NCBI GenBank assembly: GCA_043718025.1
Contig: JAYSWN010000008.1
Coordinates: forward strand, 1 to 16,273
DNA length: 16,273 nt
Source: Pseudomonadota bacterium
GTDB lineage: Bacteria > Bdellovibrionota > FAC87 > UBA2466
Reading direction: 5' to 3'
Part shown: piece after piece, positions 1,185-16,273 of the stretch
How the letters are laid out: every line of letters starts with the position of its first letter
Numbering within the stretch: the first letter of the stretch is position 1
Translations under genes and position numbers: made by a program
The notes under the pieces: generated by a model
The model's database searches: none
What the model was told of the DNA's origin: nothing
What the model saw: the letters and a program-made list of their open reading frames with translations, nothing else

Positions 1185-1215
1185 GGGGATCCTGAACTTC
1201 AGGGTCCCCTTTTTT
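1185..1215 (+). terminator. Rho-independent terminator between the convergent lipoprotein gene and dxs
   Basis: Hairpin GGGGATCCTGA-act-TCAGGGTCCCC (one G-U pair) followed by TTTTTT. Confidence 0.85.
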
Positions 1216-3169
1216 AATTTAGCGTGGGTCTGACTTCGGCGGCGGGCTGCTTGGGCCCGAGCACAAATGGAGCGTCACCGGAAATACGCTGGGTGATTTT
1301 GGCAACGATCGACGCCGCATCGAGCCCGCACAGCACTCGCTGCTCTTTGGGCGAGGCGTGATCGACGTAAATATCGGGAATGCCAATGGTAAGAAGCTCG
1401 GCCTTAACCTGGTCGCGGGCAATAAATTCGGCAATGGCGCCGCCAAAGCCACCGCAAATGGTGTTCTCTTCCATCGTCACTGTAAGGCGACTGTGCTGCA
1501 TCCAGTAGCCAAGCAAATCTTCATCCAAAGGCTTTACGAAGCGCGCGTTGATGATACCAACCTTAAGCCCTTTTTCGCGAAGCTTTGGTGCCACTTCCAA
1601 CGCGGTTTGCACCGTAAGGCCAATTCCCACCAGCAGCACATCTAGCCGGTCGTTGTCGGTGTGCAGCAGCTCGCCTTTTCCAAGCGGCAATACGTGCGGA
1701 TCCGCATCCATCGGCACACCCACCACTTCACCGCGCGGGTAGCGCAAGGCCGTGGGGGCGGTGGTGCAGTCAATGCAGGTTTTGATCATGTGTTGAAGTT
1801 CATTTTCGTCTTTAGGCGCCATGATCACCACGTTGGGCACGGCCCGCAAATAGGTGAGATCAAAAATACCCTGGTGCGTGGCGCCGTCGGCACCCACCAG
1901 TCCGCCGCGATCCATCGCGAAGACCACCGGCAGGTTGTTCAACGCCACGTCGTGAATGATCTGATCGTAAGCGCGCTGTAAGAACGTGGAGTAAATGCCC
2001 GCCACCGGACGGTAACCTTCGGTTGCCAATCCTGCCGCAAACATCACCGCGTGGGCCTCGGCAATACCTACGTCGTAGGTGCGGGTAGGAAACTCTTTTT
2101 GAAATTTATTTAAGCCGGTTCCGCTCGGCATGGCCGCGGTGATGGCGATGATGCGCGGATCTTCTTTAGCGAGCCGAATTAAAGTGTCGGCGAAAACGTC
2201 TTGGTAGGCCGCTTTTTTCGGAGCGGTAGAGGGCTGAATGCCATCATCGATCTTAAACGGCGTTACCCCGTGATATTTCAGCGGCAGCTCTTCGGCGCGC
2301 CGGTACCCTTTGCCCTTAACGGTGAGAACGTGAACTAGGTACGGACCGCTTTCGGCGCCTTCGTTTTTGATGAACGACAAGGTGTCGTGCAGGGCCGTAA
2401 GGTCGTGCCCATCAATCGGACCAAAGTAACGAAAGCCAAAGCATTCGAACAAAATGCCCGGAGTAAAAAAGTTTTTAACGCTCTTTCGGGCGCGCGACAC
2501 CCAGCCACCCACCGGCACGCCGTGGTCTTCTAAGGAGACCAAAAGGTTGCGCACTTCGTGGCGAAGGCGATTGTACCCGGGGTGAGTGATCGCGTGATTG
2601 ATGAACTTAGAAAAGGCCCCCACGCTGGGGTCAATCGACATGTCGTTGTCGTTTAAAATCACCGCCAAGTTTCGACTGGGCGTGTGGCCGGCGTTATTCA
2701 AAGCTTCAAAAGCCAATCCACCGCTCATCGAACCGTCGCCAATCACCGCTACCGCCATGTGGGACGAGCCACTGTGGCGCATGCCCTCGGCAATGCCCAA
2801 TGCCGCCGAAATGGAGGTGCTGGCGTGGCCAGCGCCAAAATGGTCGTATTCGCTTTCGGCCCGGCTGGTAAAACCGGAAAGGCCATCTTTTTCGCGAATG
2901 GTCGGAAAACGATCGCGCCGGCCAGTCAAAATTTTGTGGGGGTAAGCCTGGTGGCCCACGTCCCAAACCAGCTTGTCTTTAGGGGTCTCAAAAACGTAGT
3001 GGAGCGCTACGGCCAGCTCTACCGTGCCCAAATTGGAGGCAAAATGGCCCCCTTTTTGGGAAATCACGCTCAGAATGAGATCGCGAACCTCTTTAGCAAC
3101 TTGCGGCAGGGCTTCCTTGGGAAGCTGACGCAGGTCAAAAGGGGACTCGATTTTTTCAATTAAGCTCAT
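1214..3169 (-). CDS. dxs: 1-deoxy-D-xylulose-5-phosphate synthase
   Basis: Motifs GGHFASNLGTVEL, WDVGHQAYPHKILTGR, GHASTSIS, TPP-binding GDGSM...ILNDN, GPIDGH, DVGIAEAHA, IYSTFLQRAYDQ, DGATHQG and RYPRG. Confidence 0.98.
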   Translation of the reverse strand: MSLIEKIESPFDLRQLPKEALPQVAKEVRDLILSVISQKGGHFASNLGTVELAVALHYVFETPKDKLVWDVGHQAYPHKILTGRRDRFPTIREKDGLSGFTSRAESEYDHFGAGHASTSISAALGIAEGMRHSGSSHMAVAVIGDGSMSGGLAFEALNNAGHTPSRNLAVILNDNDMSIDPSVGAFSKFINHAITHPGYNRLRHEVRNLLVSLEDHGVPVGGWVSRARKSVKNFFTPGILFECFGFRYFGPIDGHDLTALHDTLSFIKNEGAESGPYLVHVLTVKGKGYRRAEELPLKYHGVTPFKIDDGIQPSTAPKKAAYQDVFADTLIRLAKEDPRIIAITAAMPSGTGLNKFQKEFPTRTYDVGIAEAHAVMFAAGLATEGYRPVAGIYSTFLQRAYDQIIHDVALNNLPVVFAMDRGGLVGADGATHQGIFDLTYLRAVPNVVIMAPKDENELQHMIKTCIDCTTAPTALRYPRGEVVGVPMDADPHVLPLGKGELLHTDNDRLDVLLVGIGLTVQTALEVAPKLREKGLKVGIINARFVKPLDEDLLGYWMQHSRLTVTMEENTICGGFGGAIAEFIARDQVKAELLTIGIPDIYVDHASPKEQRVLCGLDAASIVAKITQRISGDAPFVLGPKQPAAEVRPTLN

Positions 3170-3193
3170 GGACCCCTTTTATAGCGGTTTTTA

Positions 3194-4090
3194 TTAGTTT
3201 TTTCGACGGCGAATAAATTCGGCGATGGCCATTAGCGACTCGCCACGGAAACCCTCTACCGAGATCGATTCTACGGCCAAGTCGAGCAAAGCGTTTAAGC
3301 GCTCTTTCATCTCGGTGGCGGTCATAAAATCGGCGTAAGAAGGCTTCGGCTTTTTGCGCGGGCCGCGCGAATAGCGGAAGCTGGTTTCAGAGTCTAAAAG
3401 GTCGTCCGAAATCTGAAAGGCCAAGCCCAGATTTTCGCCGTACCGCTTCAACCTCTGGATTTGACGCTCTTCTAAGGGCACCAGCCGAGTGGGCATCAGT
3501 ACGGCGCAAAGGATGAGGGCCCCTGTTTTATGGATATGAATGAATTCAACTTCGGGGTGCGAAAAATGGGCATCCACCGCCGTGACGTCCAACAGCTGGC
3601 CGCCAACCATACCGCGGACTCCCGAGCACTGTACTAATAGCTCTAGCGCGCTCAACGAGTTGGCTGGCGAGAACCGCCCCGACTTTCCCAGCGAGGCCAT
3701 CAGGCCAAATGATTCAGTCAAAAGGGCATCGCCCGCCAAAATGGCCACCGCCTCCCCGAACCGTTTGTGGCTGGAGGGCTTTCCGCGGCGGGTGTCGTCG
3801 TCGTCCAAAGCCGGAAGATCGTCGTGAATCAGTGAGTAGGTGTGAATAAACTCAAGCGCACAGGCGGCCGGAAGCGCGTCCTCGGGCTTAATGCCCACGG
3901 CCTCGGCACTTGCCATCATCAATAAGGGACGAAGGCGCTTGCCGCCGCCTTCGAGGCTGTAGCCCATGGCGTCGATAAGCGGAGAGAACTGCTTGGAGCA
4001 GACGCTGCGAAACTTCTTGAGGTGGGCATTTAAAAAACTATCAAAGAGAGCAACGTTACTCTCTGCAAACTGTTCAAAGCTAATCGCCAT
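3194..4090 (-). CDS. ispA: Polyprenyl (farnesyl/geranylgeranyl) diphosphate synthase
   Basis: Motifs GGKRLRP, first Asp-rich motif HTYSLIHDDLPALDDDDTRRGKP, AILAGDALL, GMVGGQLLD, HKTGALI and second Asp-rich motif FQISDDLLD. It sits in the classic position upstream of dxs. Confidence 0.92.
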   Translation of the reverse strand: MAISFEQFAESNVALFDSFLNAHLKKFRSVCSKQFSPLIDAMGYSLEGGGKRLRPLLMMASAEAVGIKPEDALPAACALEFIHTYSLIHDDLPALDDDDTRRGKPSSHKRFGEAVAILAGDALLTESFGLMASLGKSGRFSPANSLSALELLVQCSGVRGMVGGQLLDVTAVDAHFSHPEVEFIHIHKTGALILCAVLMPTRLVPLEERQIQRLKRYGENLGLAFQISDDLLDSETSFRYSRGPRKKPKPSYADFMTATEMKERLNALLDLAVESISVEGFRGESLMAIAEFIRRRKN

Positions 4091-6002: not shown

Positions 6003-7421
6003 TTAGCGGGGTTGCGCGGGAGTAGGGAAAGGCGAGGGAGTGGCCGCCTTAAGATTCCAACGCACGAATGCCTCAAGGTCTTCGGGGGTGCCCAGGCCGT
6101 GCATCTCGTGCTCGGCGATAGGAAAAATCTCTACCCTGAGACCCAAACGAATCATTTCGTTGTAGACCGGGCAAACGTAAAATTCACCTCGCGTGCGCCG
6201 CTCATGGCGAATCAACGCTTCAGCGGCTTCGACGAAGTAGGCGCCTTTTTTAAAGTAGTAAATCCCCGTTGTTGCGTGTGGGCTGATCACCAATTTTTCG
6301 GCCACCTCAACCACTTGGTTATCGGCGGTAGTCTTGGCGTAACTCCATTTCGGATCGCTGGCGGGAAAGGTTAAAATCAAACCGTCGCAACCACTGGTGG
6401 CCGCATGGTGAAAGAACGGATCGAGCGTCAGGCCAAGCCATTGATCCACGTTGGCGATTAACAGCGGCTTTTGCAAATCTAGGTGTTCGAGTGCAAGCAA
6501 TACGGTGCACGCGGCACCCTGGGTGGTTTCGGGCACGTCGACGATCTGACATTCCGGTGAAAGCCAGCGAAGATTTGAAGCTAAATTCGTTTCACGCAAG
6601 TGGCTTTGGCGGCAAAGAAAAGTAAACCGGTGAGTCAAATGGGTAGGGCGCAAATTTTCAATCACCCAATCGACCATCGGGCGGCCAAAGATAGGGATGA
6701 GAGGTTTTGGCTCAGCGTACCCCTTTTGCTGAAAGCGAGCGCCTTCGCCTGCCATGGGAATCACGATCTCAATATCGGGTGAGGCCCCAAGGTTTGCGTC
6801 GGTTTCTGGCTGGCGTTTGAGATCGCGGCGCAAACGTTCGAGCGTCACTTCGCGGGGACTGCGCACGACAATCAAATTGTTGGTGACGGCGGTGGCGGCG
6901 GTAACTCCGGTGAGCGAATCTTCTACAATCGCCATTTCAGAAGCGCTTACCCCAAACCGTTTTAATGCCTCGAAGTAAATCGCCGGATGGGGCTTAGGTG
7001 CTGAAACCTCTTCTTGCGACAGCGCGAACTCAAACACTTCAGAGATTTTTAGTTTCTGCAGAAAAAGCTCTAGCGTGGCGCGGGTGCAGTTGGTGGCCAC
7101 CGCGAGGCGGTAGCCTTCTCGCTTTAATGTGGACAATAAATTGGCATGTTCATCGTTGGGCTTTAGTTCGCGTTCGGCAATCTCTCGAGTGTAATGCTGC
7201 TTGAGCTCATTCAAAAAAGGGTGAAGGGCGCGGGGAAGGCCGGTGCGCTGAGAAAGAATTTCTAGTTTGGTGCGAGTGGGTAAACCGTTGTAAAGCGCCT
7301 GATGCTCGTCTTTCGTGATGGAGTAGCCGAATATGGAAAGGGCGCGGTTAAAGGCCTGAAAGTGCCATTCCACGGCATCCACCAGAACTCCATCTAGATC
7401 GAAAACAATCGCACGAATCAT
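6003..7421 (-). CDS. Fusion of a HAD-family phosphatase and a BcbE-like sugar nucleotidyltransferase/GT-A domain
   Basis: N-terminal HAD motifs FDLDG, ATN, KPHP and EDS. C-terminal IVIPMAGEGARF...PKPLI, GAACT, NVDQ, KWSY, VAEK, EFYV.PVYN and GLGTPEDL. The start is placed at ATG 7421 (MIRAIVFD); the ORF track begins at GTG 7457. Confidence 0.88.
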   Translation of the reverse strand: MIRAIVFDLDGVLVDAVEWHFQAFNRALSIFGYSITKDEHQALYNGLPTRTKLEILSQRTGLPRALHPFLNELKQHYTREIAERELKPNDEHANLLSTLKREGYRLAVATNCTRATLELFLQKLKISEVFEFALSQEEVSAPKPHPAIYFEALKRFGVSASEMAIVEDSLTGVTAATAVTNNLIVVRSPREVTLERLRRDLKRQPETDANLGASPDIEIVIPMAGEGARFQQKGYAEPKPLIPIFGRPMVDWVIENLRPTHLTHRFTFLCRQSHLRETNLASNLRWLSPECQIVDVPETTQGAACTVLLALEHLDLQKPLLIANVDQWLGLTLDPFFHHAATSGCDGLILTFPASDPKWSYAKTTADNQVVEVAEKLVISPHATTGIYYFKKGAYFVEAAEALIRHERRTRGEFYVCPVYNEMIRLGLRVEIFPIAEHEMHGLGTPEDLEAFVRWNLKAATPSPFPTPAQPR

Positions 7422-7514
7422 TCCGGCTAATTCTAATTGAAAATCGGCGATCCGCACTGATGCGGCGCGCTATCTCAGTTTGCCTGATCCCGGGGTAAGG
7501 CAATCTCCGCTCGA

Positions 7515-8405
7515 TTAGAAAAAGCCGTAGCGGGTGACGATTGCAAATGACTGGGCCGCCGGCGTATTTCGTGACCAGCCAACTTGCGGCACCGTGAATT
7601 CGGCGGTGGCGGCAATGGACCAGACGCGATCGATAAAAAAAGTGGGCTGGATAAAAGCGGAAACCGTGTTGCTGCTCGTTGCGGCGATGGTTCTGCCGTT
7701 TGCAAAAGTGTTTCCAGTCCAGACTTGGCTGCTACCCAAAGCGAGCGAAAGGCGGTTTGAGAAATTGTAGGCAACGGTTTCGGAGAGTTCGAATTGGTTT
7801 CCCAATCTATCTCCGGTCGCCGGGGCGAGCCGATGGGTGTAGCTTGCGCGTAGGCCCAAGGAGGTCGCGCCTAACTTTTTTTCTACGCCAACGCCGACGT
7901 AGGGTTCCCACATTCCATTGCCGGTGCCGGGCGTCCAGGTGCCATCCACCTTTTTTTCAACCGATCCGGTGGGCAGTTTAACCCCGCCCTGAAGGCGAAT
8001 CGTCGGATACCAGTCATCGGTAAACAGGGCCTCTAAGGCAGTCCAGTCGACGCCAATTGAAACATCCCCTACTCCGCGTCGATCGGCGAGGGTGGCGCCG
8101 TAGGACTTAGCTTGGGTGACTAAGGGAACCAACGCCTGAATTTGCCAGTCGGGATGTAGGCGCATGCCGGCACCAATGGTTAAAGCTATGGTCCGGTGCA
8201 GTTCGGTTTTTTCAGCCTCTCCTGAAGAGTTAAACCTCCCGTAATCTTCTTTATACGACAATGAGGTTCCCACTTCGTATTTCTGAAGGCGAGTTAGGGA
8301 AATGAAACTTTTAGAGGCGCCGCCGATACAACAAGCCGCCGCGAGCACCCAGCGGGAGAAAAACAGACTAAACCAACTCAGCCGCAGCCATCTCATCAAC
8401 TTCAC
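7515..8405 (-). CDS. Outer-membrane beta-barrel protein (putative transporter, MetA-pathway/SphA-like) with N-terminal Cys-Cys
   Basis: Signal peptide followed by AACCIGG. Amphipathic beta strands, G(V)GD(V), GVKLPTG and GTGNGMW motifs, and an aromatic C-terminal signature TRYGFF. The start is GTG 8405 or ATG 8396. Confidence 0.75.
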   Translation of the reverse strand: MKLMRWLRLSWFSLFFSRWVLAAACCIGGASKSFISLTRLQKYEVGTSLSYKEDYGRFNSSGEAEKTELHRTIALTIGAGMRLHPDWQIQALVPLVTQAKSYGATLADRRGVGDVSIGVDWTALEALFTDDWYPTIRLQGGVKLPTGSVEKKVDGTWTPGTGNGMWEPYVGVGVEKKLGATSLGLRASYTHRLAPATGDRLGNQFELSETVAYNFSNRLSLALGSSQVWTGNTFANGRTIAATSSNTVSAFIQPTFFIDRVWSIAATAEFTVPQVGWSRNTPAAQSFAIVTRYGFF

Positions 8406-8407
8406 GA

Positions 8408-8971
8408 TTAACGGCCTTTTCCCTTTGGAATATCGATGCCGACTTTAACTACTTGTTTAGCCCCGTCTTCGAAAACTAAGTTCATTTCCCAGTAGCCACC
8501 ATGGGCAATGTCGAGCGTGGCTTCCACTTCAGTCGCCGATTTTTTATTAAGCGTGGCGGTGAAAGGGCCGCCCATTTCCGGCATGGTGGGCATGTCGTAT
8601 TCAACCAGGGTCAGCTTATCGATGGCGAGGGGGGTGAGCGTAAGATCGCTCCATTTGATTGAAAGCACATTCTCTTTTCCCGGTTGAAGATTAAGAGTGG
8701 AAACACTCACCACTTGCCGAGATGGCAAAATGAAGAGGCCCGGCATGGCGTTTGTATTACGCTGGGCTTGCACACGTTCACCTTTCTGACGGAGAACAAG
8801 TCCGCTGCCTTTTTCAGTGTTAGTCGCGTGAACTAGCACGGTGCTGCCCGTGCTTACCGCAGGTTGAGAAATGGCGGACAACGGGGCCGGCGAGTTAATT
8901 TGGCAGCCGGTTAGCATCACGCCGGATAGTAAGATGGCCAATCCGACGGCATGGATGGATTTAAGCTTCAT
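8408..8971 (-). CDS. Lipoprotein with a C-terminal YtkA/FixH-like Ig-fold domain (Met-rich, putative Cu binding)
   Basis: Start at ATG 8971 (MKLKSIHAV...) and lipobox LTGC. YDMPTMPEMG and downstream HGGYWEM follow the MP.M...G.W pattern of YtkA-like domains. Confidence 0.7.
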   Translation of the reverse strand: MKLKSIHAVGLAILLSGVMLTGCQINSPAPLSAISQPAVSTGSTVLVHATNTEKGSGLVLRQKGERVQAQRNTNAMPGLFILPSRQVVSVSTLNLQPGKENVLSIKWSDLTLTPLAIDKLTLVEYDMPTMPEMGGPFTATLNKKSATEVEATLDIAHGGYWEMNLVFEDGAKQVVKVGIDIPKGKGR

Positions 8972-8981
8972 ATTTTTAATG

Positions 8982-9449
8982 TTAATGAGCCATCGCTTGC
9001 TTAAGGTTTTTCCAACCACGAATCACTTCTCCGTCACCAAGCTTCGTCGTTTTATCTTTTGCCGCTTTTTCAGACGCAAAAGCCACCACCGTCGGTGGCA
9101 TGTCGAAGTCGAGCTCTTTCAGTAGATTTTTACTGCGAACCAGAAAGTAAGCGTCGTCGCCCGGTATGGTTTTGTCGCTACTGAAATCGGTGACTTCAAA
9201 TTTGGCCTCGGGAAATTTATCCGAGGTTTTCGTAGCGCAGGCAAAGGAGCAAAGGTGACGCGGTTTTTCCTGCACCTTGGTGAAAAAGGCGGTCTTGGCC
9301 GTGGGCCGAAACGTCATTCCGCAGACCGGACATTCGGCAAGTTTGGCGGAATTTCCGGCGACCGGTGCGGCCACAAGGTGAGGGGAGACCAGGAGGCCTA
9401 AACTTAAGAAGAGGGGAATCAAAAATCCCCGGCTAATGCTTTGCGTCAT
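8982..9449 (-). CDS. NosL-like periplasmic metal (copper) chaperone
   Basis: Signal peptide, then CPVCGM, HLCSFAC, VTDF, AYFLV.S, DM..TVVAFASEKAA and a terminal G..I.GW. This is the NosL/YHS-TRASH layout. Confidence 0.78.
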   Translation of the reverse strand: MTQSISRGFLIPLFLSLGLLVSPHLVAAPVAGNSAKLAECPVCGMTFRPTAKTAFFTKVQEKPRHLCSFACATKTSDKFPEAKFEVTDFSSDKTIPGDDAYFLVRSKNLLKELDFDMPPTVVAFASEKAAKDKTTKLGDGEVIRGWKNLKQAMAH

Positions 9450-12593: not shown

Positions 12594-13010
12594 CTACTGT
12601 GCAGCCAGGTAGGCTATTTCGCGTTTGCGCCAGATAAGAAAAACAGCGCCAAACGCCACTAAAAGCACGCAGACCAGTGCCAGTAAGAAGTTAACTCCTG
12701 CATTAGCGCCGATGACCAAAGGCGAATTGGGGTTACCCAGACAGACCGGGCACGCCCAGGCTGACTCTCCCGAGAACGCCAGCCCAGCGATGGATGCCGT
12801 CCACGCGAAGTAGCTTATGCTCTTCCACTTCTTCACAAACCAAATGCCGTAGATAAACAGGCCCACAAAGGTGGCCAGCGAAAGAAAGCCCAAGATCTGC
12901 ATTGTGCCGTCGCCAGTATCGGCCGCTTCACGTAGGCACCACACCCCCAAGCCTAAGCTCAAAAGATTGGATAAGAAGATAAACGCTACGTGAAACGATT
13001 TGAGACCCAT
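12594..13010 (-). CDS. Small membrane protein with a CPVC motif, last gene of the oxidase operon (putative assembly factor)
   Basis: AAGGTG RBS, 17 bp after the subunit IV gene. It has 3-4 hydrophobic segments and AWACPVCLGNPNSPL before the last TM helix. Confidence 0.75.
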   Translation of the reverse strand: MGLKSFHVAFIFLSNLLSLGLGVWCLREAADTGDGTMQILGFLSLATFVGLFIYGIWFVKKWKSISYFAWTASIAGLAFSGESAWACPVCLGNPNSPLVIGANAGVNFLLALVCVLLVAFGAVFLIWRKREIAYLAAQ

Positions 13011-13327: not shown

Positions 13328-13927
13328 TTAGAGCAGGTACAACAAGGGAAATAAGAAAATCCAAACCAAATCGACAAAATGCCAGTAAAGGCCGGCCACT
13401 TCGATACGGCCCGTGAACCGTTCTGGTTCAGTGTGCCACATTTTACTGCCGGGGCCTAAAAGGTACGCATTTACTATGATACCGCCGATGATGTGAATGG
13501 CGTGAAGGCCGGTCATCGTAAAGTAGATAGCAAAGTAGGTGTTAGTGGCCGGGTAGTATCCGTGATGAAACTTAGCCTGGTACTCAAAGTACTTAACGAC
13601 CAAAAATACGCAGGAGAGAACTACCGTTAGCCCCATGTACAGTTTGTATTTTCCAAACTCTTTCAGCTTTAACGAGGCCCAAGACATGACAATGGTTACC
13701 GATGAGGTGATCAGGAGCACGGTATTTAAAGCCCCCATCGGAATATTGAGCACTTCATAACCGTGCGGCCACACCGTGGCACCCGTGCGCAGAATGATAA
13801 ACGTCGAAAAGAGCGCTCCGAAGAGCATCACTTCCGAGGCCAAAAACAGCCAAATGCCAAACTTGGCGTTGGTAACTCCGGTTACCGGATGTTCGTGGTC
13901 TACGTAGGGAATTAAGCCAGCAGACAT
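13328..13927 (-). CDS. ctaE: Cytochrome c oxidase subunit III (short form, about 5 TM)
   Basis: [32 protein letters not shown] and [24 protein letters not shown] overlap with subunit I. Confidence 0.95.
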
Positions 13928-15690
13928 TAGGACTCCTTCGAGAATTGCGGAAGAAGGTTACGGTTTGGTGAGTACTGGTACGGGTCGCGATAGACCTCAA
14001 CCGCGTGCTCAAAATTAACGTGCGGCGGAGGCGTGGGGGTTGCCCACTCCAAGGTGGTGCCACCCCAGGGGTTCTTGTCGGTAACCACTTTGCCTTTTTT
14101 CAGACTCACCACCAAATTGTACAGAAAAGGGAGTTGGAATACGGCCAACGCCCAAGCTGCATAAGACATGACCACGTTAAAGATCTGTCCCTGAGCGCCA
14201 TGGGCGTAAACAGTTTGGTCGAACAACCGGCGCGAAATGCCCATCATCCCCATCATAAGCATCGGCATGAAGATAAAGTTCATGGAAACCATTGAACCCC
14301 AGAAATGAATCTTACCGAGCGTTTCATTAAACATTCGACCCGTCACTTTTGGATACCAGTGATAAACCCCGGCCATCAACGCAAACAGCGTACCCGGCGC
14401 AACCACGTAGTGGAAATGGCCAATAACGTAGTAGGTGTCGTGCAAATGAATGTCCGACGCGGTTAACCCCAAAGGCAATCCGGTTAGGCCACCGATGGCA
14501 AACATGGGTAAAAACGCCAGCGCAAAGAGCATTGGCACCGTGTAGCGAATGGACGCGCCCCACAACGTGAGCAGAAAAGTGGTCAGCACGATTACCGACG
14601 GTATTGAAATGATCAACGTGGTGGCCTGAAAGAATGAGCTCAAGGTGGTTCCCATGCCGGTCATGAACATGTGATGGGCCCAAACGATAAAAGAGGTAAA
14701 GCCCAAAAACAGCAGGGAGTACACTAACGTCCGGTACCCGTAGAGCGGTTTTTTAGTATTAGTGGCAATGATTTCGCCAACAATTCCTACCGCGGGCAAA
14801 ATCAGAACGTAAACTTCCGGGTGCGCCAAGAACCAGAAGAGATGTTGCCACAAGATGGGGTTGCCACCACCGGACACCTGAAGCGCCTCACCGCTTACTA
14901 CTAAGCCACTGGGCATAAAAAAGCTGGTACCCGCCAGACGATCCATGAGCTGGAGTACGCCTGCCGCTTCTAAAGGCGGAAAGGCCAGTAACAATAAGAA
15001 GGCGGTAATTACCTGCGCCCAGACCAAAATCGGCCAGCGCATAAAAGTCAGCCCTTTCACCCGAAGCTGAATGGCGGTGACAATCGTATTGATGCTACCC
15101 AGCAAAGAAGAGGTGATCAAAAAAACCATGCCGATAAGCCAATAGGTCTGAGCGTTGTTAGCAATAACGGCAAGCGGGGGATAAGAGGTCCAGCCACTTG
15201 CGGCGGCGCCACCGGGAGCTAAAAAGCTAAACATCATGATCATGCCGCCAATAAAAAACACCCAGTAGCTCATCATGTTGAGCTTGGGGAAGGCCATGTC
15301 ATGCGCGCCCACTTGAATCGGTAGTAAATAGTTTCCAAAACCGCCGACGCTCAAGGGCACCACGCCCAAGAAGATCATGATGGTTCCGTGCATGGCGCCA
15401 AGTTGGTTATAGGCCTCGGGCGACATCACGCCGCCGGGGAAAAGAGATTCACCCAGCAGCCCACCAATTAGCGGGAGCGGTTGGTTGGGGAAAGCCAGCT
15501 GCCAACGCATGAGTAGCATCAAACCGAAACCAATTAGCAAAAACAACATGGCCGTAACGGCGTACTGGATGCCAATCACTTTATGGTCGACCGAGAAGAT
15601 ATACTTTTTCCAAAAGGGCTCGTGAGCCCAATGTTCCATAGTATCCTTCAACATCTGATCGTGATCACCGGCGTGTGAGGACGCGCTCAT
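13927..15690 (-). CDS. ctaD: Heme-copper oxidase (A-family) subunit I
   Basis: [64 protein letters not shown] and GISRR. All six His ligands and the cross-linked Tyr are present. Confidence 0.98.
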
Positions 15691-16273
15691 GATTCATTCC
15701 CTTCTTCTTCAACTTCTTCTTGAACTTTAGATTTACGGATGGTCGTCTCTTCAACAGGAGCTTTTTGCACGGCAGGCGCGGCTTCCGCCGTCTCTCCCAT
15801 TTGCTCTTTGTGCTGCTCGGCCATCCACTTATCAAACTCTTCTTGCGTCTGGGCAATGAAACTACCGCGCATGCGGTAGTGGCCTACGCCACATAGTTGA
15901 GCGCAGGCAATTTCAAACTCGCCGGTCTCTTTGACTTCAAAATGGACCGGAATCTCCATCCCGGGAATAACGTCTTGTTTAACTCGAGCCACCGGGAGGA
16001 AGAAGGAGTGAATGACGTCTTTTGAACGAAGATCGATGACGATGGGCCGATTAATCGGAACGTGCAGGTTATTAATGGTTACGATGTCATCTTTGCCATC
16101 CGCACTCTCTCGATCCACTCCAATTGGGTTCGATGCGCTGTCGATCTTGGCGTTGTCGGTGGGACCAAATTTTCCGTCTTTACCCGGATAGCGGATGTTC
16201 CATGCGTACTGCTCGGCCACTAACTTAATCACCACCGCGTCTTTGCGATCGGGAAAGTCATTTTTATACTTTC
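15687..16273 (-). CDS. ctaC: Cytochrome c oxidase subunit II, C-terminal CuA domain (5' end lies outside the window)
   Basis: The frame is open to the window edge (...KYKNDFPDRKDAVVIKLVAEQYAW). Motifs SKDVIHSF, KQDVIPG and CAQLCGVGHYRM. ATGA overlap with subunit I. Confidence 0.95.
   Translation of the reverse strand, partial: KYKNDFPDRKDAVVIKLVAEQYAWNIRYPGKDGKFGPTDNAKIDSASNPIGVDRESADGKDDIVTINNLHVPINRPIVIDLRSKDVIHSFFLPVARVKQDVIPGMEIPVHFEVKETGEFEIACAQLCGVGHYRMRGSFIAQTQEEFDKWMAEQHKEQMGETAEAAPAVQKAPVEETTIRKSKVQEEVEEEGNES

What the first reader, a model, noticed from the sequence alone, without database searches (positions are those of the whole stretch)
14569..14625. A-family oxidase subunit I lacks the K-channel lysine
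Seen: helix VIII reads [17 protein letters not shown], where canonical A-family enzymes read about TMIIAVPTGIKIFSW. By manual alignment the K362 position (Rhodobacter sphaeroides numbering) is Val (codon 14587-14589) and T359 is Ser. D-channel residues (Asp in DMAFP, Asn in FGNY and KLN, Glu in HPEVY), the active-site Tyr, all His ligands and the RR pair are intact. Established: replacing K362 nearly abolishes O2 turnover in model aa3 enzymes. Inference: this enzyme uses a rebuilt K-pathway or the D-channel only, or has altered pumping or substrate behaviour.
Basis: partly seen in the sequence, partly recalled or inferred. Interest (0 to 1): 0.75.

Follow-up and report, generated by a model that had tools for sequence, protein, structure and literature searches.

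The report
Lysine-less oxidase with rerouted proton path
This gene encodes the catalytic subunit of a respiratory heme-copper oxidase from a widespread bacterial branch that lacks the textbook proton-channel lysine; it likely still reduces oxygen, probably drawing protons through a new buried glutamate on its partner subunit, which would make it a natural test of why that lysine is needed.

Summary
Observation confirmed. Val368 (codon 14587-14589) aligns without gaps to K362; 120 of 120 top homologues have Ile/Val/Leu there. It marks a multi-phylum clade, not an error. Thr-to-Ser at 359 is ordinary (31 of 37 Lys-bearing relatives). The loss is already in print: a 2021 supplementary table lists an A1 'KC channel' subclade, and methanotroph genes matching its Methylacidiphilum row nest in this clade. 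I found no biochemistry on it. It likely reduces O2: metal ligands, Tyr and D-channel are intact, and in 8 related genomes it is the only terminal oxidase found. All 66 paired subunits II carry a new mid-membrane Glu/Asp (0 of 36 Lys-bearing), and helix VIII gains Ser362 and Thr370 on the face predicted to touch it. Best reading: a rebuilt proton path at the subunit I/II interface (0.5); D-channel-only is the main rival. The co-occurrence is one evolutionary event, so it is not independent co-evolution. This scan reported the same clade and the subunit II Glu several times on other genomes.

The parts
13927..15690 (-). coxA/ctaD: heme-copper oxidase subunit I, 587 aa, A1 motif HPEVY, 12 predicted helices
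   Evidence: model pLDDT 80.3, best fold matches aa3 oxidases, TM 0.80-0.82
14587..14589 (-). Val368 at the K362 position
   Evidence: I/V/L in 120 of 120 homologues
14605..14607 (-). Ser362 (A356 position): clade-specific polar residue on the face of helix VIII predicted to touch subunit II
   Evidence: 88 of 88 clade rows, 0 of 37 Lys-bearing rows; in predicted interface
14581..14583 (-). Thr370 (F364 position): clade-specific polar residue, same face
   Evidence: Thr/Ser in 88 of 88, Phe in 37 of 37 Lys-bearing rows; in predicted interface
14593..14598 (-). Ser365 (T359 position, kept as hydroxyl) and Val366 (G360 position, now bulky)
   Evidence: S365 87 of 88 clade and 31 of 37 Lys-bearing; V/I366 88 of 88 versus A/G 37 of 37
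14626..14628 (-). Gln355 (M349 position): clade-specific polar residue near the outer end of helix VIII
   Evidence: 83 of 88 versus 0 of 37
14809..14823 (-). HPEVY motif: CuB ligand His290, Glu292 (E286, D-channel end), Tyr294 (active-site Tyr)
   Evidence: 88 of 88 each
15277..15333 (-). D-channel entry: Asn120, Asp131, Asn138
   Evidence: D/E 84 of 88; N 84 of 88 each
14968..14970 (-). Glu241 in helix V (A247 position): second clade-specific membrane acid, role unexplained
   Evidence: 78 of 88 versus not among the common residues of 37 Lys-bearing rows
15687..16271 (-). coxB/ctaC: subunit II, C-terminal CuA domain, no heme c domain. Its two membrane helices lie outside the window at G000:C90:19697-20068 (+) (L112:3698-4069), whose end overlaps this contig by 97 identical bases; they carry His30, Glu73 (E101 position) and Glu80 (new)
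13328..13927 (-). coxC/ctaE: short subunit III, 199 aa
   Evidence: PF00510
13028..13312 (-). ctaF: subunit IV, 94 aa
   Evidence: PF03626, TIGR02229 over cut-off
12594..13010 (-). 138-aa membrane ORF without Pfam family: fusion of two small genes (two helices with a conserved His; CxxC plus one helix) that travel with this clade; possible extra subunit or assembly factor (inferred)
   Evidence: no family; N-terminal part in 60 of 88 clade loci and 2 of 37 Lys-bearing loci, some loci with short flanks

Best explanation
This is subunit I of an A1-like oxidase that has lost the K-channel lysine and likely still reduces O2, with the protons of the reductive phase probably entering by a rebuilt path along the subunit I/II interface in which a new glutamate of subunit II would take the lysine's place. 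Shown: ligands, Tyr, D-channel and CuA motif are intact; K362, S299, S365/N and W366 are gone; subunit II keeps the entry Glu73 and gains Glu80 seven residues deeper on the same helix face; helix VIII gains Thr370 and Ser362. Inferred: heme a/a3 enzyme fed by a cytochrome b-type complex III; path Glu73(II) > Thr370 > Glu80(II) > Ser362/Ser365 > Tyr294; pumped protons still use the D-channel.
For: O2 reduction: all active-site residues conserved in 87-88 of 88 clade rows; dN 0.06-0.07 with saturated dS against three same-genus genes, dN/dS 0.033 in the one measurable pair of five. In 8 of 24 same-family genomes (G009, 012, 013, 018, 019, 020, 022, 023; 91-98% complete) it is the only heme-copper oxidase and no cytochrome bd was found; all 8 encode homogentisate 1,2-dioxygenase, and heme A synthase was found in 6 of the 6 of them tested. 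Same-family genomes without it carry a Lys-bearing A2 enzyme instead. Rebuilt path: Glu/Asp at the new site in 66 of 66 paired subunits II, 0 of 36 Lys-bearing (Pro in 26), plus 2 of 2 methanotroph copies; it is better conserved than the entry Glu (58 of 66). S362 88/88 vs 0/37 and T/S370 88/88 vs F 37/37. Predicted I/II complex (score 0.88, best control 0.00; mark reached by 116 of 157 solved and 2 of 215 mismatched pairs; runs agree in at least 90% of contacts, partner pLDDT at least 79; a textbook pair, so the pass shows likeness) lists II 72-73, 76-77, 80-81 and I 355, 362, 366, 370 in the interface. Published channel heights put E101 about 9-10 A below K362 (passages of PMC10341450), matching seven helix residues (about 10.5 A). 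Three clade members lost D132, N121 and N139 yet keep Glu80, E286, Tyr and all His.
Against: No activity, pumping or structure is measured. The Lys loss and the Glu gain map to one branch, so 66 of 66 is one event. Two other Lys-less lineages in my set (L014/L015/L018; L101) have no Glu at this column. The complex output names no partner for Glu80 among its 25 listed pairs, and S365 and V368 are not in the interface list, so the link from Glu80 to Tyr294 is not shown. Val366 replaces Gly on that face and could block it. An acid cannot supply the positive charge proposed for K362 near the active site (passage). The entry Glu is missing in 6 of 66 (2 more have Asp). The 8 sole-oxidase genomes are incomplete assemblies of only 3 genera, and the AOX search had no positive control. 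ctaA and ctaB were not found in the window's own genome (92% complete), which also has a cbb3-type oxidase.
Confidence: 0.5

Rival explanations
1. O2 reductase that takes all eight protons through the D-channel; the K side is sealed by Val/Ile, and Glu80, Ser362, Thr370, His30 and Pro406 serve packing of subunit II or of the heme a3 tail, or tune the active-site potential.
For: Canonical D-channel entry in 84 of 88 clade rows and E286 in 88 of 88; every classical lower K-channel residue of subunit I is lost; bulky Val/Ile at the G360 site; entry Glu less conserved than in Lys-bearing relatives (58 of 66 vs 36 of 36).
Against: Entry Glu or Asp is still kept in 60 of 66; an invariant mid-membrane acid is costly without a function; L068, L072 and L081 lack the D-channel entry as well but keep Glu80 (they may be decaying or rewired; two are near-identical).
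Confidence: 0.27
2. The enzyme uses a C-family-like ('KC') route through helix VI/VII hydroxyls (Glu306, Ser325, Ser333), as the label in Degli Esposti et al. 2021 implies.
For: Ser333 in 83 of 88 and Glu306 in 85 of 88; the published table classes matching rows as 'KC-channel' or 'hybrid'.
Against: These residues are not clade-specific: Glu/Asp306 in 32 of 37, Ser325 in 20 of 37, Ser333 in 10 of 37 Lys-bearing rows; Ser325 is Ala in 21 of 88 clade rows; two of the four 'KC' columns are Gly and Leu here.
Confidence: 0.1
3. The enzyme has another main substrate or role (NO or peroxide reduction, O2 scavenging at low turnover) and needs no K-path.
For: K-channel blocks spare the peroxidase half-cycle (passage of PMC10095113); many hosts, including this genome and the methanotrophs, have other oxidases.
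Against: Tyr plus three His CuB site, not the Glu-bearing NOR site described in PMC11214002; only oxidase found in 8 genomes with an O2-dependent dioxygenase, which lies within about 4 kb of the subunit I gene in each.
Confidence: 0.1
4. Sequencing error, misalignment or a decaying gene.
For: None found.
Against: Ungapped alignment; 120 of 120 homologues; strong purifying selection; identical contig.
Confidence: 0.01

Closest known systems
A1 'KC channel' subclade of Degli Esposti et al. 2021 (PMC8239418, Table S1 and table for Fig. S7: Elusimicrobia, Ca. Calescamantes, Methylacidiphilaceae)
   Same: A1 motif, K354 (Paracoccus) replaced. Published Methylacidiphilum row Y G L S V E S F S S E is matched exactly in its ten subunit I columns by six of 11 genes from pmoA-bearing Verrucomicrobiae genomes; these are 60-64% identical to the window protein and those put in trees nest in its clade. 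Window row: Y G V S T E G L S S E.
   Different: The table looks only at E78 of subunit II; the parts I read do not mention the deeper Glu, Ser362 or Thr370. The clade is far wider than the taxa listed. No biochemistry in the parts read. I could not fetch their accessions, so the Elusimicrobia and Calescamantes rows are matched by pattern only.
Canonical A1 aa3 cytochrome c oxidase (R. sphaeroides 1M56, P. denitrificans 1AR1)
   Same: Fold (TM 0.81, 37-38% identity), HPEVY, six His, RR pair, D-channel, CuA subunit II, subunits III and IV, entry Glu.
   Different: No K362, S299, S365, W366, G360; new Glu80 and His30 in subunit II; score under the TIGR02891 cut-off (563.2 vs 670.75).
Bacteriovorax/Halobacteriovorax-type A1 oxidase ('Oligoflexia' subclade of the same paper)
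   Same: Also lacks the Lys (Phe); L014, L015, L018 match the published Halobacteriovorax row in all ten subunit I columns; shares Ser362.
   Different: 42-44% identical; keeps S299 and Asn at S365; no Glu at the Glu80 column; sister relation unresolved (apart, together at support 56).
B-family ba3 oxidase (Thermus thermophilus)
   Same: Works without the Lys, through a polar chain that starts at a subunit II Glu (general statement; residue detail recalled).
   Different: B-family has no D-channel; here it is intact. The two helix VI tyrosines of the ba3 path (recalled as Y244, Y248) are Val301 and Gly305 here, and its Thr at the Lys site is Val.

Membership tests
A1 heme-copper O2 reductase (Pereira/Sousa) | Six His ligands and helix VI Tyr | tested here: met
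A1 heme-copper O2 reductase (Pereira/Sousa) | HPEVY motif with E286 | tested here: met
   motif definition in passage of PMC8361435
A1 heme-copper O2 reductase (Pereira/Sousa) | D-channel D132, N121, N139 | tested here: met
A1 heme-copper O2 reductase (Pereira/Sousa) | K-channel with K362 (and S299/S365) | tested here: not met
   V368, G305, T371. So it works like and descends from A1 but is not a canonical member.
A1 heme-copper O2 reductase (Pereira/Sousa) | Subunit II with CuA and entry Glu (E101) | tested here: met
   CuA motif in 65 of 66 clade subunits II, with Gln in place of the usual Glu in the window's copy; Glu73 present
A1 heme-copper O2 reductase (Pereira/Sousa) | O2 reduction with proton pumping | not testable with these tools
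   only genomic inference
A1 'KC channel' subclade (Degli Esposti 2021) | A1 motif with K354 replaced, Y280, S/T351 and E292 kept | tested here: met
A1 'KC channel' subclade (Degli Esposti 2021) | Groups with Methylacidiphilaceae COX1 | tested here: met
   genes with the exact published row, from pmoA-bearing genomes, nest in the clade: SH-aLRT 96 and 100; taxon inferred from pmoA, class and residue row
A1 'KC channel' subclade (Degli Esposti 2021) | Groups with the Elusimicrobia and Calescamantes members | not tested
   no such sequences fetched; Elusimicrobia rows resemble the window row
A1 'KC channel' subclade (Degli Esposti 2021) | C-family-like polar chain at the four 'KC' columns | tested here: inconclusive
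   G, L, S, S; not specific against Lys-bearing relatives
B-family oxidase | No D-channel; Tyr/Thr/Ser K-analogue | tested here: not met
   D-channel intact; V301, G305, V368 (ba3 positions recalled)
C-family (cbb3) oxidase | Active-site Tyr on helix VII, cytochrome c subunits | tested here: not met
   Ser333 at that column; CuA subunit II; TIGR00780 31 bits vs 583 cut-off
NO reductases of the superfamily | No cross-linked Tyr; Glu or other ligand at FeB | tested here: not met
   Y294 in 88 of 88; definition in passages of PMC11214002

The most novel reading that the evidence does not exclude
A whole branch of A-type oxidases has swapped the essential Lys of subunit I for a Glu of subunit II, reversing the sign of the channel's key residue and moving the chemical-proton path to the subunit interface, with its own small extra subunits; a few members run on that path with the D-channel entrance gone too.
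Probability: 0.35. Interest if true: 0.75.

Novelty: new variant of a known kind. Interest (0 to 1): 0.5.

Why it matters
Why A-type oxidases need a separate K-channel, and whether K362 is a proton relay or an electrostatic switch, is a long-standing question argued almost wholly from mutants of a few model enzymes. Here is a natural, conserved, multi-phylum enzyme without the Lys that appears to be the only terminal oxidase of some bacteria. A cultured host is likely available (verrucomicrobial methanotrophs, whose aa3-type oxidase is mentioned in PMC8498564 and PMC10205796), and the sequence pattern gives specific mutants and a transplant test. It also means that classifying A-family enzymes by two conserved channels, and assigning them a fixed pumping yield, is unsafe for this branch. 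The bare loss is not new (2021 supplement), which caps the score.

Tried and rejected
Shifted Lys: none in helices VI-IX cores beyond two single outliers. T359S as a signal: rejected, common in Lys-bearing relatives. B-type analogue: rejected. Treating 66 of 66 as co-evolution: rejected, one origin. One origin for all Lys-less A1 sequences: neither shown nor rejected (support 56; apart). Direct His30-Glu80 pair: not supported by register (His30 is listed with Pro406) and His30 is Leu in the methanotroph copies. Glu241 pairing with the His of the small gene: by-eye comparison shows no clean match. AOX search: blank with blank control. ACIII (NrfD) not found in 5 of 5 genomes; cytochrome b found in 5 of 5. 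Expression: no RNA holder listed; small-share runs X3, X5 gave only short pieces. Single-chain model gave fold only, no side-chain geometry. Subunit II was found for only 2 of the 5 methanotroph regions fetched. No atlas look-alikes were obtained for the 138-aa ORF. Literature searches found no paper on the deeper subunit II Glu or on biochemistry of this clade; the library lacks most subscription papers, and I did not see Degli Esposti 2020 (review), which the 2021 paper cites on channel variants, nor Fig. S7 as an image or five of eight parts of its supplementary text.

Full report
Observation. The stretch lies in a 587-aa minus-strand gene, 13927-15690, matching COX1 and, best among solved structures, R. 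sphaeroides subunit I (E 6.9e-115). Helix VIII aligns without gaps: V368 (GTG, 14587-14589) is K362, S365 is T359, V366 is G360. S299, S365 and W366 are also replaced (G305, T371, F372). D-channel, Tyr, His ligands and the RR pair are intact. An AlphaFold model (pLDDT 80.3) matches aa3 oxidases.

It is a clade trait. The 120 best of 7998 scored homologues (69-100% identical) all have Ile, Val or Leu there. From 125 fetched loci I recovered 118 subunit I rows. In a tree of 115 (3 partial rows dropped) 75 rows form one branch (support 0.974), all without Lys; subsets of 52 and 31 of 126 rows gave 96 and 100. Record titles include Acidobacteriota, Verrucomicrobiota, Planctomycetota, Marinimicrobia and Ignavibacteriota. 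Among 301 genomes of the window's own phylum, matches over 70% identity occur in 23, all in its order; the next best is 46%. The phylum is probably Bdellovibrionota (inferred from a homologue label and from relatives matching published Halobacteriovorax rows). My 88-row 'clade' set was picked by the residue at 368, without L101; the trees show it coincides with the branch for the rows they include.

Operon. Order on the minus strand is coxB, coxA, coxC, ctaF, then a 138-aa ORF. The window is a whole contig that cuts coxB; its first 124 residues lie on contig C90, which overlaps by 97 identical bases. Next to it, divergent, is homogentisate dioxygenase, then an aromatic amino acid hydroxylase. 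The genome also has a cbb3-type oxidase and a cytochrome b, no bd; ctaA and ctaB were not found, though ctaA is in 9 of 9 relatives tested, including 3 of 3 of the same genus, so an assembly gap is likely.

Does it reduce O2? Inferred, with good support. The active site is invariant and selection is purifying. In 8 of 24 same-family genomes it is the only heme-copper match and bd is not found; all 8 have the O2-dependent dioxygenase. Limits: three genera, 91-98% complete, AOX control blank. Family members lacking it carry a Lys-bearing A2 enzyme, as if the two were interchangeable.

What replaces the Lys? Earlier notes of this scan pointed to a Glu in subunit II; I tested it. Of 118 rows, 106 had a subunit II in the locus. 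In the 66 clade pairs the position seven residues after the entry Glu is Glu (65) or Asp (1); in 36 Lys-bearing pairs it never is (Pro 26); in 4 Lys-less pairs outside the clade it is not. The entry Glu is kept in 58 of 66, a His in the first helix in 62 of 66. In subunit I, S362 (88/88 vs 0/37), T/S370 (88/88 vs Phe 37/37), V/I366 and Q355 are clade marks. A predicted complex of subunit I with the 124-residue piece (0.88, best control 0.00; 116 of 157 solved and 2 of 215 mismatched pairs reach the mark; runs agree in at least 90% of contacts, partner pLDDT at least 79; a textbook pair that may pass from memory) lists exactly these helix VIII residues and II 73, 76-77, 80 in the interface. It lists no partner for Glu80 and omits S365 and V368. 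Published heights along the channel (23.4 and 19.1 A either side of E101; 12.8 and 10.4 A either side of K362) put the Lys about 9-10 A above E101, about the rise of seven helix residues. So Glu80 would sit near the level of the lost Lys, on the neighbouring helix. The path Glu73 > Thr370 > Glu80 > Ser362/Ser365 > Tyr294 is inference.

Against. One origin only; other Lys-less lineages lack this Glu; Val366 may seal the face; an acid cannot give the positive charge proposed for K362. D-only remains open. In the other direction, L068, L072 and L081 lack D132, N121 and N139 yet keep Glu80 and the active site, which D-only cannot explain unless they are decaying.

What is known. Degli Esposti et al. 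2021 (PMC8239418; I saw passages, section 12, supplementary files 3 and 5 whole, and parts 2-3 of 8 of file 2) lists an A1 'KC channel' subclade without the Lys. To link it, I found 15 pmoA-bearing genomes among 401 of class Verrucomicrobiae, took the 11 A-type subunit I genes of five, and found six with the exact published Methylacidiphilum row; all 11 lack the Lys and carry the clade marks, the four and two put in trees nest in the clade, and 2 of 2 subunits II found carry Glu80. The paper's 'KC' columns are not specific here. Passages of PMC8498564 and PMC10205796 mention an aa3-type oxidase in these methanotrophs without characterising it. Passages of PMC11214002, PMC6431628, PMC10095113, PMC8239185, PMC10341450 and PMC8361435 give family definitions and K-channel roles; that K362M nearly abolishes turnover, the ba3 residue numbers and the name P108 are recalled. 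Nine searches found nothing on the deeper Glu or on biochemistry of this clade.

Verdict. Real; a new variant of a known kind. Interest 0.5.

Noticed in passing
window 12594-13010 (-): 138-aa ORF without Pfam family; a fusion of two small membrane genes that are often separate elsewhere. The first part (conserved His) is in 60 of 88 clade loci and 2 of 37 Lys-bearing loci; flanks differ in length, so both counts are lower bounds.
   Followed up: partly
L068:5950-7701, L072:1564-3315, L081:5905-7710: Clade members that also lack D132, N121 and N139 but keep E286, Tyr, all His and subunit II Glu80; L068 and L072 lack the entry Glu too.
   Followed up: partly
L101:5935-7695: Separate Lys-to-Val subunit I in which two of the three CuB His are Gln; probably not a normal oxidase.
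   Followed up: no
L014, L015, L018: Bacteriovorax-type Lys-to-Phe oxidases; their subunit II second helix carries one or two Asp residues whose register I could not fix.
   Followed up: partly
window 14968-14970 and helix V: Clade-specific Gln226, Glu241 and Gln247 form a second polar set away from the K-channel; Gln226 is Glu in 11 of 88 rows.
   Followed up: no
window 15687-16271 (-): CuA motif has Gln where model enzymes have the Glu that bridges to Mg (role recalled); nearly invariant in the 36-row clade alignment.
   Followed up: no
L112:2277-3575; relatives: Homogentisate 1,2-dioxygenase lies next to coxB in this genome and within about 4 kb of the oxidase gene in most same-family genomes that carry the clade enzyme.
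   Followed up: partly
L130-L140: Each of five methanotroph genomes has two or three copies of the Lys-less subunit I; no subunit II was found near three of the five copies whose wider region I fetched.
   Followed up: partly
window 6003-7457 (-): HAD-like hydrolase fused to a nucleotidyltransferase domain.
   Followed up: no
window 7515-9449 (-): Three small genes, one NosL-like under the cut-off, one resembling an outer-membrane barrel by eye; possibly metal handling.
   Followed up: no
window 1214-4090 (-): ORFs that read by eye as 1-deoxy-D-xylulose-5-phosphate synthase and a polyprenyl diphosphate synthase (not searched).
   Followed up: no
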